DNA of 64,000 bases from Perna viridis (Eukaryota). Shown here piece by piece: positions 43,301 to 64,000 of this stretch (position 1 is its first letter; every line of letters begins with the position of its first letter). The position numbers are program-made. The stretch lies in NCBI GenBank assembly GCA_037379345.1, contig CM074524.1:16860750-16924749 (forward strand). Direction: 5' to 3'.

Positions 43301-46300
43301 AACGCTTAACGCGGACCTCTACGAAGACACCCAAAAAAAATAAATTGTAAAATCCATTACTTGATCTCGGTAAAATGATTATGTGCTTCTTCTCCGAATT
43401 TTGTGGTAAATTATAATACAATTTCTATTTGAACACCCTTGAATTGACTGACTTGGCATCTTTTCCTACGTTGAAGTTAGCCATGATGTATTTCAAGATG
43501 GCTTGTCTTGAGGAACCTCCGCGTTCTTTCAAAGCTGTAATGGCTTTGCCGACCATCTCGCTGTATTTTTGGTGAGCTGATGGCTTCTTTGGCTTGGCTG
43601 CTGCCTTCTTCTTTGGTGACTTGGCTGGGGCTGCTGCTGCTGCGTCAGACATTTTTGTAGAATTTATCCGTCTTTCACGAAGTTAATCCAACGATTGACG
43701 ATTTGAAAATAACGCCGACATGCTCTGTTCGTTTATAAACGATCAACGCGGACCTCGACGAAGACACCCATAAAAATAAATTGTAAAATCCATTACTCGA
43801 TCTCGGTAAAATGATTATGTGCTTCTTCTCCGATTTTTGTGGTAAATTCTAATACAATTTCTACTAGAACACCCTTGAATTATATATGAAAATGTTCAGC
43901 AGACATTATTCTGCCTCTCTGCGTAGAAATTGTAATTTTTGATACACACAGTAAAAAGTTATAAATAGTTTTCGTAGAGCGAAGCGATTTGTCAATGCAG
44001 GTAACCCGACAGAAAAATATTCATAATTGCTAATTGCGCGTATATTTCAGAAAACAAAATCTGCAGAAAAGTAGAATAATCATTTTTCTTTTATTTCAAA
44101 GTGGTTTAACACGTCTAAACTAGATATATTCGCTGTACCGACTTATCTTTCATCGGACATGAAACACACAAAAACCAGCTGCGCCATTGAAAGACTGAAA
44201 ATTTTTCCAAAATGTTACCTTCTGAATTTATTCCTAAATTCTATTTTTTTTGCCTTGATATAATAACTAGGGTTTGAATAAAATTACATATAATGGGAAG
44301 ACGAGTTTTTAACGAATTTCTGGCATTTCAACGCGTTATTTTCCCCTTAATTTGAGTTCCTGTCCCATACATAAGCTTGTGTGGTATATTCAGATGTCAT
44401 GATATAGTAGGTTCTGATTTTTTCAATTTCAATTTTAAAACTTTCAAGCTTTGAGATAAAAAATAACTGCCGTGAATAAAATATCACTCAGGATTTCCTA
44501 CTTTTTATTCCAACCAAGCTATAATTTGAGAGGATTATTGTACCTTTTCGACAACACTCACAAATATGTCCACTAAAGAGTGACTGTCTGTATAATGCAT
44601 GGCGTACACAACTATATTTTTGTCGGCGCGGTTGCTACTTTTGCAATCTCGGAAAAAGCGAAAGAACTTAAGGATAAAAACAGAAATCAAAGCATTTTTT
44701 CCTGAAAATTATATGTATATCAAACAGGGAAATATGTAATATATATGTTTATGTATATAAACTACAGCAAGAAAAGCAATCTTTTCATAGACATATGAAC
44801 TGGCATACACAATAAAATTAGAAAGCGAGAAAAGTCCTCGTAAATACTAAAACCTCTGGCCAAATTTTCTTCATGATTTGATTCAATCGTAACGTGCGTA
44901 CATGCAGCGACAATATAGCTGTCAGTCACCGAATGAAACACGAAGGTAAATGGGTAAGAGTATAGCACAGAAGAGAATCATATGGCATTACATTATGGTG
45001 TACATGTGCTAGAACTGGAAATCGAAATCGAAAAAAAAAAACGACCTGTCACTACTTCTTCGTGTAATATGGTTTCGCTCACCAATCTCTCGATCGTGTA
45101 TGTACTTGTCATGAGTACAATTGTAAATTTGATAGTCATTATAAATTACTACGTGTAGTAACACGTCTTCAAGAAATTGTTGGGGAGGGGGGGGGGGGGC
45201 AGTGTTGTTTTATTTTGGTTTTGGTTTTTTTTTTTTTTTTTGCTTGCGCTATCTCAAGGAGGGGGTTTTGATAAAAAGGGCGACTAGAGAACTAGCTATT
45301 AATTAATGAAAACTCTTGGTTATTTTGAAGTTTTTTTTTTATAATGCAGGAAATACATGCATTTGATGTATGGTATTGTTTATTATGCAGACAGATAGGT
45401 AGACTAAGTGAACTATAGGTATATAAAATTGAGTTTGTGCCGTTGAGATTTGTGACTGAACATGGTAGGGGTGGGGTTTTGTTTTGGGGGGGGGGTGGCG
45501 GGGGTAGGGGTAGACTGGTCGGGGGGTGGGTGGGGGTGTGGTTGAGATATTTTTGAAGTTTGTGTGGGATGATATTGATGTGGATGGTTTGAGGTTATTG
45601 GAAATTAGTGTATAAAAGGATGGGCCGAGCGGAGCGAGCGCGGAAAATTTTAGGGGTTTGAATTGTTAGAAATAAGATAACTAAGATATGGCGCGACAAA
45701 TAATATGGTCCTTTTTTAATTTAAGGGAGTGTTCCTATTTGAAAAACGTTGACAGAGAAAGGTTAAGTGTATGACTTTTTGGGCAAATTAAAGGGGAATT
45801 TAAGTCTTACCGTGCAAAATAGAACTCACTTTGTTTCCTGTGTGCATGCTAGTTGTAGTCATGGTATTTACGTCACAAACGTCATTGTCGCGCGCGAGGG
45901 AAAGGACGTCAGAGGATTCACGCGCTGCTAATTATGAATTGCACGCGCATCGACTGGATACTAAATTACAATATGTTGTTTTTTTAATGATACAAGACAA
46001 AACTGGTTCTAAAGTACAAAACAAGCACGAGTAAAGATACCACAAGAGTTATATAGAGACATACACACAATACTTACATAACAAAGAAAAGTATACTGTG
46101 AATTTATTAATTTTTATCAAAATACAAAAAATGAAGTTAGAGTTACCTCCCCATCACCGTCACAAAGCACATAATTAAAAGAACGAAGATATTTATATCA
46201 CATTGTTGATCTTTTTTTTAAAAGGGGGGGGGTGTAATTAAGAGACCTGTTTTGTTTTGTTTTTGTATTATTAGAAGTTATCATACCAAATAAAAGTAGC

Positions 46301-61300: not shown

Positions 61301-64000
61301 CTGGCACCCACCCTTTTCAAAGTGTCTGGATCCGCCCCTGATTCGGTATAGCTCAGTTTAAGATTTGGATATACTCGTAACAATGCAAATTAAGAATCTT
61401 TTTGAAATATTTGGGTAGCCCTTAAAAGGGCTTTTGGTGCTGCTAAACAGCCAGTTCAGAGGTAGACTCTCTGCATTTACTTCTTCTTGGGTGTTTTCTT
61501 GGCGGCTGGTTTCTTGGCTGCCTTCTTCTTGGCTGGAGATTTGGCGGCCTTTTTGGGGGGCTTGGCTGCCTTCTTGACTGTAGGTTTCTTTGCTGCCTTC
61601 TTTGGTTTGGCGGCTTTTTTCTCGCCTGCTGGTTTCTTGGCTGCGGCCTTCTTCTTGGGTGTTTTTGCCTTCTTGGGTTTTGCTGCCTTGGGTTTGGCTG
61701 CTTTCTTTGCTGCTGGTTTCTTCTTTGGTGCCTTCTTGACTTCTCCGAGTCTGAATGAACCACTGGCACCTGTTCCCTTAGACTGTTTCAAGGTCTTGTT
61801 CTTCACTCCAGCTCTCAATGCCATTTTAAGGTGAGCGTTGACTGACTTGGCATCTTTTCCTACGTTGAAGTTAGCCATGATGTATTTCAAGATGGCTTGT
61901 CTTGAGGAACCTCCGCGTTCTTTCAAAGCTGTAATGGCTTTGCCGACCATCTCGCTGTATTTTGGGTGAGCTGATGGCTTCTTTGGCTTGGCTGCTGCCT
62001 TCTTCTTTGGTGACTTGGCTGGGGCTGCTGCTGCTGCGTCAGACATTTTTGTAGAATTTATCCGTCTTTCACGAAGTTAATCCAACGATTGACGATTTGA
62101 AAATAACGCCGACATGCTCTGTTCGTTTATAAACGATCAACGCGGACCTCGACGAAGACACCCATAAAAATAAATTGTAAAATCCATTACTCGATCTCGG
62201 TAAAATGATTATGTGCTTCTTCTCCGATTTTTGTGGTAAATTCTAATACAATTTCTACTAGAACACCCTTGAATTATATATGAAAATGTTCAGCAGACAT
62301 TATTCTGCCTCTCTGCGTAGAAATTGTAATTTTTGATACACACAGTAAAAAGTTATAAATAGTTTTCGTAGAGCGAAGCGATTTGTCAATGCAGGTAACC
62401 CGACAGAAAAATATTCATAATTGCTAATTGCGCGTATATTTCAGAAAACAAAATCTGCAGAAAAGTAGAATAATCATTTTTCTTTTATTTCAAAGTGGTT
62501 TAACACGTCTAAACTAGATATATTCGCTGTACCGACTTATCTTTCATCGGACATGAAACACACAAAAACCAGCTGCGCCATTGAAAGACTGAAAATTTTT
62601 CCAAAATGTTACCTTCTGAATTTATTCCTAAATTCTATTTTTTTTGCCTTGATATAATAACTAGGGTTTGAATAAAATTACATATAATGGGAAGACGAGT
62701 TTTTAACGAATTTCTGGCATTTCAACGCGTTATTTTCCCCTTAATTTGAGTTCCTGTCCCATACATAAGCTTGTGTGGTATATTCAGATGTCATGATATA
62801 GTAGGTTCTGATTTTTTCAATTTCAATTTTAAAACTTTCAAGCTTTGAGATAAAAAATAACTGCCGTGAATAAAATATCACTCAGGATTTCCTACTTTTT
62901 ATTCCAACCAAGCTATAATTTGAGAGGATTATTGTACCTTTTCGACAACACTCACAAATATGTCCACTAAAGAGTGACTGTCTGTATAATGCATGGCGTA
63001 CACAACTATATTTTTGTCGGCGCGGTTGCTACTTTTGCAATCTCGGAAAAAGCGAAAGAACTTAAGGATAAAAACAGAAATCAAAGCATTTTTTCCTGAA
63101 AATTATATGTATATCAAACAGGGAAATATGTAATATATATGNNNNNNNNNNNNNNNNNNNNNNNNNNNNNNNNNNNNNNNNNNNNNNNNNNNNNNNNNNN
63201 NNNNNNNNNNNNNNNNNNNNNNNNNNNNNNNNNNNNNNNNNNNNNNNNNNNNNNNNNNNNNNNNNNNNNNNNNNNNNNNNNNNNNNNNNNNNNNNNNNNN
63301 NNNNNNNNNNNNNNNNNNNNNNNNNNNNNNNNNNNNNNNNNAAGGTGAGCGTTGACTGACTTGGCATCTTTTCCTACGTTGAAGTTAGCCATGATGTATT
63401 TCAAGATGGCTTGTCTTGAGGAACCTCCGCGTTCTTTCAAAGCTGTAATGGCTTTGCCGACCATCTCGCTGTATTTTGGGTGAGCTGATGGCTTCTTTGG
63501 CTTGGCTGCTGCCTTCTTCTTTGGTGACTTGGCTGGGGCTGCTGCTGCTGCGTCAGACATTTTTGTAGAATTTATCCGTCTTTCACGAAGTTAATCCAAC
63601 GATTGACGATTTGAAAATAACGCCGACATGCTCTGTTCGTTTATAAACGATCAACGCGGACCTCGACGAAGACACCCATAAAAATAAATTGTAAAATCCA
63701 TTACTCGATCTCGGTAAAATGATTATGTGCTTCTTCTCCGATTTTTGTGGTAAATTCTAATACAATTTCTACTAGAACACCCTTGAATTATATATGAAAA
63801 TGTTCAGCAGACATTATTCTGCCTCTCTGCGTAGAAATTGTAATTTTTGATACACACAGTAAAAAGTTATAAATAGTTTTCGTAGAGCGAAGCGATTTGT
63901 CAATGCAGGTAACCCGACAGAAAAATATTCATAATTGCTAATTGCGCGTATATTTCAGAAAACAAAATCTGCAGAAAAGTAGAATAATCATTTTTCTTTT

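What the first reader, a model, noticed from the sequence alone, without database searches (positions are those of the whole stretch)
43446..64000. Tandem array of solitary linker-histone H1 genes with no core histones
Seen: at least seven H1 starts on a ~3.67-kb period, with no H2A, H2B, H3 or H4 frame and no 5S sequence in the ~3-kb spacer. Known: most invertebrates keep H1 in quintets with the core histones, but H1-only 'orphon' clusters are described in Mytilus, so the arrangement is not new in bivalves. Inference: this is an independently amplified H1 locus that lets linker-histone dosage change separately from core histones, possibly for embryo or germ-line needs. Its unit and boundary may be undescribed in this species.
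[Added by the scan's program, not by the reader: the finding's places include an assembly gap (unread letters, written N; its length is only estimated) at 63142 to 63341. Whether the letters on both sides are continuous or in frame is not known: test that first.]
Basis: partly seen in the sequence, partly recalled or inferred. Interest (0 to 1): 0.72.

Follow-up and report, generated by a model that had tools for sequence, protein, structure and literature searches.

The report
Mussel linker-histone H1 gene array
This is a real head-to-tail array of near-identical histone H1 genes with no core histone or 5S genes between them, an arrangement already described in Mytilus mussels, so it is an ordinary finding for this group.

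Summary
From 43272 to the window end, a ~3.67-kb unit repeats head to tail on the minus strand. Seven H1 starts are present, but only 4 of the 7 are whole 189-aa genes. Copy 1 is cut after about codon 70 at the array edge. Copy 2 is frameshifted by a 31-bp tandem duplication. Copy 7 runs into the assembly gap.

The gap is not continuous. Its left flank ends at unit position 1665 and its right flank resumes at position 352. About 2.36 kb (plus any number of whole units) is therefore hidden, not 200 bases.

Each unit has promoter motifs, an intronless H1 reading frame (Pfam PF00538, 8e-29) and a histone 3' stem-loop. No poly(A) signal follows. The spacer holds no core histone, 5S or tRNA gene.

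The closest proteins are Mytilus H1s at 66-87% identity, and the exact protein is absent from the collection. H1-only tandem clusters are published for Mytilus (PMC4106214). The verdict is a new member of a known kind, of low interest. The embryo or germ-line dosage idea was not tested.

The parts
43272..43445 (-). Relic of an older unit at the array's left edge. It matches unit positions 627-799, which is the H1 upstream region -229 to -57. It is 92% identical and its TATA box is lost.
   Evidence: blastn; sequence read (TTTATAAAC replaced by TTTGGTAAC)
43444..43652 (-). H1 copy 1. Only about codons 1-70 remain, with a P28Q change. The 3' 361 nt of the frame and the stem-loop are missing. This copy is a pseudogene at the array edge.
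43444..46759 (-). Repeat unit 1 (partial, unit positions 362-3671).
46760..47360 (-). H1 copy 2. The frame is broken by a 31-bp tandem duplication (the two copies lie at 47231-47261 and 47200-47230). Residues 34-189 are otherwise 100% identical.
46760..50460 (-). Repeat unit 2 (3701 nt). It carries the 31-bp duplication, a 6-bp deletion and homopolymer length differences.
50461..51030 (-). H1 copy 3, an intact 189-aa frame.
54134..54703 (-). H1 copy 4, an intact 189-aa frame. It has a linker-histone winged-helix domain at residues 27-101 and a K/A/P-rich tail.
57805..58374 (-). H1 copy 5, an intact 189-aa frame.
61477..62046 (-). H1 copy 6, an intact 189-aa frame.
63342..63560 (-). H1 copy 7. 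Only codons 1-73 are visible and the rest lies in the assembly gap.
63142..63341 (.). Assembly gap of 200 N inside the array. The flanks are out of register (unit position 1665 against 352). If the array is regular, about 2357 nt plus n x ~3672 nt are hidden.
54049..54094 (-). Histone 3' stem-loop (6-bp stem, 4-nt loop), followed by ACCCA and a purine-rich CAAAAAGA. Identical copies lie at 46675-46720, 50376-50421, 57720-57765 and 61392-61437.
   Evidence: Rfam RF00032, 35.4 bits against gathering score 34; fold; sequence
54788..54887 (-). Promoter region of copy 4: AAGAAGCACA (H1-box-like) at -175, GGTCC (H4-box-like core) at -102, TATAAA at -85 from the ATG. No CCAAT is present. No column varies across unit positions 571-1010 in any copy that covers them.
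   Evidence: motif scan; variant table. The motif consensus sequences are recalled, not taken from a call.
54704..57804 (.). Spacer of 3101 nt with 36% G+C. No gene is detected. It contains C-rich tracts on the minus strand (about 56220-56720), which cause the alternating GC skew. It also has three TGACG sites at 56915-56955 and a possible ~170-bp inverted-repeat element just 3' of the stem-loop, at about 57500-57670 in the neighbouring copy.

Best explanation
This is the left end and first few units of a genuine H1-only tandem array in a mytilid mussel genome.

Each ~3.67-kb unit is a self-contained RNA polymerase II gene. It has a TATA-containing promoter with H1-box-like and H4-box-like motifs and an intronless 189-aa linker histone. 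That protein's globular domain is closest to the H5/H1.0 type among solved structures. The 3' end is made of the histone stem-loop plus a purine-rich downstream element, with no poly(A) signal. The mRNA is therefore most likely cleaved by the U7 snRNP/SLBP pathway and coupled to S phase, like core histone mRNAs.

Many identical copies supply dosage. The copies are kept almost identical, spacer included, by unequal crossing-over or gene conversion. The edge copies escape this homogenisation and decay, as seen in the truncated copy 1, the frameshifted copy 2 and the 92% promoter relic.

Shown: the array, the gene anatomy, the family membership, the homogeneity, the left boundary, and the absence of core histone, 5S and tRNA genes.
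Inferred: transcription, the processing pathway, S-phase coupling, the homogenisation mechanism, and the total copy number.
For: - Array structure and identity. In 21 unit pairs there are 0-2 substitutions per pair.
- 50 variable alignment columns in all: 31 from one duplication, 6 from one deletion, 10 from homopolymer-type length changes and 3 from substitutions.
- Units 1 and 2 share 3 length variants that the inner units lack. This fits less homogenisation at the edge.
- H1 family: PF00538 at 8e-29 against a cut-off of 22.4 bits. The protein is 31% K, 23% A, 9.5% P and only 2% R, with 4 S/TPXK sites.
- Solved structures: H5 at 4e-23 and H1.0 at 4e-19, ahead of H1.1-H1.4 at 1e-13 to 3e-9.
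- Stem-loop downstream of 5 of the 5 copies whose 3' end is in view. It folds as a 6-bp stem with a 4-nt loop.
- No AATAAA or ATTAAA within 634 nt after the stop codon.
- Promoter motifs.
- Nothing else in the unit.
- Relatives: of 120 listed hits, the named ones are nearly all Mytilus H1s. Full-length identity is 66-87% to the 10 hits aligned. Globular-domain identity reaches 94%.
- Published precedent: H1 genes repeated in tandem apart from core histones in M. edulis and M. galloprovincialis, with FISH confirmation in four Mytilus species and in Xenostrobus securis (PMC4106214 passages). [quoted passage not shown]
Against: - There are no expression data, so transcription and S-phase coupling are inferred from motifs only.
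- The stem-loop score (35.4 bits) is barely above Rfam's threshold (34). Its first pair is A-U. The local fold is not better than shuffles (z = -1.16).
- The promoter box assignments rest on recalled consensus sequences.
- Spacer and coding region are equally identical between copies. The array itself therefore gives no sign of purifying selection. Conservation is seen only against other species' proteins.
- Copy number is unknown. The window shows 4 intact genes, an out-of-register gap, and an open right end.
- Most differences between copies are homopolymer lengths, which can be sequencing errors. The 31-bp duplication in copy 2 could likewise be an assembly error.
- Mytilus 'orphon' H1 genes are reported to carry a polyadenylation signal (PMC6210712 passage). 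None is found here.
Confidence: 0.85

Rival explanations
1. The array is a specialised stock of H1 genes for early embryos or the germ line, comparable to the early histone repeats of sea urchins. On this view it would be regulated apart from the core histone clusters.
For: High-copy homogeneous tandem arrays are the classical form of early-embryonic histone genes (recalled, not from a call). H1 is physically separate from core histones in the window and on different chromosome pairs in Mytilus (PMC4106214).
Against: Nothing in the sequence marks stage specificity. The 3' end is of the ordinary replication-dependent type. The protein is lysine-rich with 2% arginine, unlike arginine-rich sperm protamine-like proteins (the comparison is recalled). 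Its globular domain is closest to H5/H1.0, not to oocyte-type H1s.
Confidence: 0.2
2. The H1 units are only one part of a larger compound repeat. Core histone and/or 5S genes would lie in the hidden stretch at the gap or beyond the window end, as in the quintet-plus-5S unit reported for M. galloprovincialis.
For: Such a unit (h4, h2b, h2a, h3, h1 plus two 5S repeats) and H1 interspersed with 5S rDNA are both reported in Mytilus (PMC4106214 passages). The gap and the right end leave sequence unseen.
Against: Five consecutive unit junctions in view are H1-to-H1 with nothing between them. Both gap flanks belong to the same unit, and the 659 nt after the gap are 100% identical to it. The window has no 5S match.
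Confidence: 0.08
3. The copy structure is largely an assembly artefact. A smaller or larger true array may have been mis-expanded or collapsed, and the differences between copies may be sequencing errors.
For: A fixed-size 200-N gap sits inside the array with its flanks out of register. Ten of the 50 variable columns are homopolymer-type length changes. The inner units are 99.9-100% identical.
Against: Units 1 and 2 carry shared and private variants, including a 31-bp duplication, a 6-bp deletion and 3 substitutions. There is a unique left junction with a diverged relic. These are not expected from a simple loop in an assembly graph. Tandem H1 arrays of about 100 copies are expected in this family (PMC9294527).
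Confidence: 0.1
4. The array is a silent, satellite-like block of H1-derived repeats. The working H1 genes would lie elsewhere.
For: Two of the 6 copies whose frame can be judged are broken. Identity is as high in the spacer as in the gene.
Against: Four identical open frames each keep promoter motifs and a 3' processing signal. The globular domain is 88-94% identical to the 40 closest of the 120 listed H1 hits. Both broken copies are at the array edge.
Confidence: 0.05

Closest known systems
H1-only tandem clusters of Mytilus edulis and M. galloprovincialis. Sources: Drabent et al. 1999 and Eirin-Lopez et al. 2002, both seen only as cited in PMC4106214 and PMC9294527. The 'H1C' clusters were mapped by FISH in PMC4106214.
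   Same: H1 genes are repeated in tandem on their own, apart from the core histone clusters and without 5S. The closest proteins are Mytilus H1s. Primer H1CF, designed on those genes, matches all 7 copies with one mismatch.
   Different: The protein is only 66-87% identical over its full length to the aligned hits, and the exact sequence is in no collection searched. The 3'-UTR primer H1CR does not match within 3 mismatches. I could not compare unit length, because the two original papers are not held. A polyadenylation signal is reported for the M. galloprovincialis genes (PMC6210712) but none is found here.
M. galloprovincialis compound unit of h4, h2b, h2a, h3 and h1 with two 5S rDNA repeats, and the 'H1L' genes interspersed with 5S rDNA. 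Sources: Eirin-Lopez et al. 2004 as cited in PMC4106214, and PMC13525598.
   Same: It is a mytilid H1 gene in a tandem repeat.
   Different: The unit here has no core histone and no 5S sequence.
Vertebrate replacement linker histones H1.0 and H5.
   Same: They give the best matches among solved structures: H5 at 4e-23 and H1.0 at 4e-19. They also lie apart from the core histone genes. The promoter has a GGTCC motif where an H4 box would sit. The H4 box is described as a feature of differentiation-dependent H1 genes in PMC6027317. The motif sequence itself is recalled.
   Different: [quoted passage not shown] Here there is a stem-loop, no poly(A) signal and a multi-copy array.
Early histone gene repeats of sea urchins and the Drosophila histone quintet array (recalled; the Drosophila locus is mentioned in PMC13525598).
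   Same: Highly homogeneous head-to-tail units of intronless histone genes with a stem-loop.
   Different: Those units hold all five histone genes. This one holds H1 alone.

Membership tests
Linker histone H1/H5 family (Pfam PF00538) | Central winged-helix globular domain | tested here: met
   PF00538 E 8e-29, 100.1 bits against cut-off 22.4. Residues 27-101 cover profile positions 1-74 of 74. PDB matches to H5, H1.0 and H1.x.
Linker histone H1/H5 family (Pfam PF00538) | Short N-terminal arm and long lysine/alanine/proline-rich C-terminal tail with S/TPXK sites | tested here: met
   K 31%, A 23%, P 9.5%, R 2%. There are 4 S/TPXK motifs, at residues 12, 129, 170 and 185.
Replication-dependent histone genes | 3' stem-loop shortly after the stop codon | tested here: met
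   RF00032 match 40 nt after the stop in 5 of 5 copies whose 3' end is visible. Score 35.4 bits against gathering score 34. Folds as a 6-bp stem with a 4-nt loop.
Replication-dependent histone genes | Purine-rich downstream element for U7 snRNP | tested here: inconclusive
   CAAAAAGA lies 13 nt after the ACCCA that follows the stem (sequence). The consensus is recalled, and no U7 sequence of this organism is available to test pairing.
Replication-dependent histone genes | No intron and no poly(A) signal | tested here: met
   A single open 189-aa frame. No AATAAA or ATTAAA within 634 nt after the stop.
Replication-dependent histone genes | S-phase-coupled expression | not testable with these tools
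   No expression data are available.
Mytilus-type H1-only tandem cluster | H1 units repeated head to tail | tested here: met
   Five unit-to-unit junctions, period 3671-3701 nt, all on the minus strand.
Mytilus-type H1-only tandem cluster | No core histone or 5S gene in the unit | tested here: met
   None of 26 spacer ORFs has a Pfam match above cut-off. Rfam finds only stem-loops. Badly decayed histone fragments shorter than 45 aa would be missed.
Mytilus-type H1-only tandem cluster | High copy number (about 100 per haploid genome) at a locus separate from the core histone clusters | not testable with these tools
   The window shows 7 copies, a gap and an open right end. No reads, chromosome data or rest of the genome are available.
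'Orphon' H1 lineage (H1.0/H5-like invertebrate H1s) | Located outside the core histone repeat, with a globular domain nearer to H1.0/H5 than to somatic replication-dependent H1s | tested here: met
   (H5 4e-23 and H1.0 4e-19 against H1.1-H1.4 at 1e-13 to 3e-9). No phylogenetic tree was made.
'Orphon' H1 lineage (H1.0/H5-like invertebrate H1s) | Polyadenylation signal in addition to, or instead of, the stem-loop | tested here: not met
   No signal within 634 nt after the stop. The signal is reported for M. galloprovincialis H1 in PMC6210712 (passage).

The most novel reading that the evidence does not exclude
This would be the sequence-resolved edge of an H1-only array in a mytilid lineage not yet characterised. 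In it, an H1.0/H5-like linker histone has become a purely stem-loop-processed, high-copy, concertedly evolving gene. The CpG-undepleted spacer (CpG observed/expected 0.95) with its cluster of three TGACG sites would then be an array-specific regulatory or histone-locus-body-nucleating module, not junk.
Probability: 0.1. Interest if true: 0.4.

Novelty: new member of a known kind. Interest (0 to 1): 0.2.

Why it matters
H1-only arrays in mussels have been known since 1999 from cloned fragments and FISH. This window adds a base-level view of one array end in a relative of Mytilus. It gives the exact unit, shows near-perfect homogeneity that includes the spacer, and shows decay of the edge copies. 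Together these illustrate concerted evolution with edge escape in a histone array. It is useful for annotation and for designing FISH or copy-number probes. It does not change what is known about histone gene organisation.

Tried and rejected
- Tandem Repeats Finder cannot see the array because its longest period is 500 nt. It found only a 195-nt repeat at 7366-8084, so I used blastn of one unit instead.
- A search for long terminal repeats or other repeats next to the array edge (34000-43450) found none. The gag-like ORF at 40866-41519 (Pfam PNMA, 6.9e-7) could therefore not be tied to a bounded element.
- A possible miniature inverted-repeat element in the spacer has only a 16-nt arm pair at 87.5% identity (E 0.057) and no copy outside the array. 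I left it as a weak lead.
- No telomeric repeat is present, so a subterminal position like that of the Mytilus H1C cluster is neither shown nor excluded.
- The original papers on the Mytilus H1 clusters (PubMed 12187381 and 10552045) are not held. Their unit sizes and promoter descriptions could not be compared.
- PMC5550673 and PMC12153100 gave only reference-list entries.
- The primer sequences for the 5S-linked H1L genes are in a figure that is not held, so I tested only the H1C primers.
- A search for papers holding at least two of 'H4 box', 'H1 box' and 'mussel' returned one paper, on vertebrate H1.0, and it does not mention mussels.
None of these was queried.
- Paper supplements are closed. 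Supplemental Table S1 of PMC13525598 may list mussel histone organisation that I could not see.
- I did not determine the species.
- Nothing in the window was taken for human.

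
Full report
**The observation.** A blastn of one unit (54134-57805) against the whole window shows a head-to-tail repeat from 43272 to the window end.
- The first hit is a 174-nt piece at 43272-43445, 92% identical to unit positions 627-799.
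- A partial unit lies at 43444-46760 (positions 362-3672, 99.7%).
- Full units start at 46760, 50461, 54134 and 57805 (98.8-100%).
- A further unit runs from 61477 to the gap at 63141 (positions 1-1665, 100%).
- After the gap, 63342-64000 matches positions 352-1010 (100%).
- The period is 3671-3673 nt, or 3701 nt for the second unit.

Tandem Repeats Finder cannot report this array because its longest period is 500 nt. H1 coding sequence is found at seven places and nowhere else in the 64 kb (tblastn). The published Mytilus primer H1CF matches the same seven places with one mismatch, against a chance expectation of 0.01. All copies are on the minus strand.

**The gap.** The only N run is 63142-63341, 200 letters. 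Its left flank ends at unit position 1665, in the spacer. Its right flank starts at unit position 352, inside the H1 frame after codon 73. The two sides are therefore neither continuous nor in frame. If the array is regular, the hidden stretch is about 2357 nt plus any number of whole units. The 148-aa and 101-aa ORFs that read through the Ns are artefacts.

**State of the seven copies.** Four are complete, identical 189-aa frames: 50461-51030, 54134-54703, 57805-58374 and 61477-62046.
- Copy 2 (46760-47360) carries a 31-bp tandem duplication, with the two copies at 47231-47261 and 47200-47230. It shifts the frame, and residues 34-189 are otherwise identical.
- Copy 1 (43444-43652) keeps only about 70 codons, with a P28Q change at a position invariant among 11 aligned H1s.
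- Copy 7 (63342-63560) shows 73 codons before the gap.

**Anatomy of a unit** (copy 4, minus strand).
- Promoter: AAGAAGCACA at -175, GGTCC at -102 and TATAAA at -85 from the ATG, with no CCAAT. The consensus sequences for the H1 box and H4 box are recalled, not taken from a call. That an H4 box is typical of differentiation-type H1 genes is stated in PMC6027317 (passage).
- Coding region: an intronless 570-nt frame.
- 3' end: forty nucleotides after the stop lies a histone 3' stem-loop. Rfam RF00032 scores it 35.4 bits against a gathering score of 34, and it is present after each of the 5 copies whose 3' end is in view. It folds as a 6-bp stem with a 4-nt loop. ACCCA and a purine-rich CAAAAAGA follow it.
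- There is no AATAAA or ATTAAA within 634 nt after the stop.

**The spacer.** The remaining 3101 nt have 36% G+C, against 50% in the frame.
- No Rfam match appears even at E up to 1, and there is no tRNA.
- Of the 32 stop-to-stop ORFs of 45 aa or more that overlap the unit, one is H1. Five are other frames of the next H1 copy.
- The other 26 were all scanned against Pfam. None reaches a cut-off, none hits a histone fold, and 3 have chance-level hits at E 0.027-0.11.
- Core histones are 100 aa or longer (recalled). Apart from H1, no ATG-started ORF of 90 aa or more lies in 43446-63061.

**The protein.** Pfam places residues 27-101 in the linker-histone family (8e-29). The composition is 31% K, 23% A, 9.5% P and 2% R, with four S/TPXK sites. 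This is a lysine-rich somatic-type H1, not an arginine-rich sperm protein (that comparison is recalled). Among solved structures the best matches are H5 (4e-23) and H1.0 (4e-19), ahead of H1.1-H1.4 (1e-13 to 3e-9).

In the large protein collection, 4823 of 8000 scored candidates pass E 0.001. The named ones among the best 120 are almost all Mytilus H1s. Full-length identity to the 10 hits aligned is 66-87%, and globular-domain identity reaches 94%. The exact sequence is not in the collection. The 3'-UTR primer H1CR, designed on Mytilus species, finds no match within 3 mismatches. The source is therefore a mytilid mussel close to, but not identical with, the Mytilus species that have named proteins. 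I did not determine the species.

**Homogeneity and the edge.** In 21 pairwise comparisons of units there are 0-2 substitutions. The alignment has 50 variable columns:
- 31 from the duplication in copy 2;
- 6 from one deletion;
- 10 from homopolymer-type length changes;
- 3 from substitutions.

The spacer is as uniform as the gene. This points to homogenisation by unequal crossing-over or gene conversion, or to very recent amplification, and not to selection. Units 1 and 2 share three length variants absent from the inner units, and both broken genes are at the edge.

At 43444/43445 the frame of copy 1 is joined directly to a 92% identical relic of the upstream region (-229 to -57). The relic has lost its TATA box. 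The simplest reading is a deletion of about 3.2 kb between an older terminal unit and copy 1 (inference). Left of 43272 the sequence is unrelated. It holds a gag-like ORF (Pfam PNMA, 6.9e-7) with no detectable long terminal repeats.

**What is known.** PMC4106214 (passages) states that in M. edulis the core histone repeat is independent of the H1 genes, which are also repeated in tandem. It states that M. galloprovincialis has, besides a compound unit of five histone genes with two 5S repeats, independent H1 clusters. It also reports that FISH in four Mytilus species shows H1 repeats both alone and interspersed with 5S rDNA, on chromosome pairs other than those of the core histones. PMC9294527 (passage) gives close to one hundred H1 copies per haploid genome. 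A 2026 review names Mytilus among the taxa with separate H1 and core clusters (PMC13525598, passage). PMC6210712 (passage) says the M. galloprovincialis H1 genes carry a polyadenylation signal, which I do not find here. The original papers are not held, so their unit sizes could not be compared.

**Verdict.** The array is real as assembled. It is H1-only within view, and each whole unit looks like a working, replication-dependent-type linker histone gene. The arrangement is a known feature of mytilid mussels, so I rate it a new member of a known kind with low interest. The stem-loop 3' end, if anything, points to the same cell-cycle coupling as core histones.

Copy number, the content of the gap, what lies beyond 64000 and the location of the core histone genes remain open.

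ORFs of the neighbouring multi-exon gene were scanned one by one. Nothing in the window was taken for human.

Noticed in passing
window 6924-8186 (minus), tandem repeat 7366-8084: A 195-nt tandem repeat (3.7 copies, 91% matches) lies inside a 420-aa open frame rich in T, E, S and Q. It looks like a mucin-like exon. It has no Pfam match.
   Followed up: partly
window 32705-33070 (minus): An exon-sized ORF matches the LDL-receptor class B repeat (Pfam PF00058, 1.4e-8). It is probably part of a multi-exon gene on the minus strand left of the array.
   Followed up: partly
window 8498-8902 and 30369-30803 (both minus): Two ORFs are 69% identical over 99 aa (E 1.6e-46) and have no Pfam match. They are probably two copies of a dispersed repeat or mobile-element fragment.
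   Followed up: partly
window 40866-41519 (plus): A gag-like ORF (Pfam PNMA, 6.9e-7) lies 1.7 kb from the array edge. No flanking long repeats were found in 34000-43450. It may be a retrotransposon fragment bordering the array.
   Followed up: partly
window 56915-56955 (and the same place in each unit): Three TGACG sites lie within 41 nt in a CpG-rich patch of the spacer, about 2.2 kb upstream of the H1 start. It looks promoter- or enhancer-like, but its function is unknown.
   Followed up: no
window about 57500-57670 (and the same place in each unit): A ~170-bp stretch just 3' of the stem-loop is bounded by a 16-nt inverted repeat (87.5% identity, E 0.057). It may be a miniature inverted-repeat element. 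No copy lies outside the array.
   Followed up: partly
window about 56220-56720 (each unit): Long C-rich tracts on the minus strand (G-rich on the plus strand) explain the alternating GC skew of 0.20-0.25 seen in every other 2-kb bin across the array.
   Followed up: partly
window 54134-57804: CpG observed/expected is 0.37 in the H1 frame, 0.95 in the spacer and 0.77 in the first 43 kb of the window. The contrast may reflect codon choice or germ-line methylation of the gene body only.
   Followed up: no
one search hit table: Several groups of distinct H1 proteins from unnamed records share the same longest-contig length, for example five at 480500 and six at 196299. This suggests clusters of diverged H1 genes on single contigs in related assemblies. 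The records were not traced.
   Followed up: no
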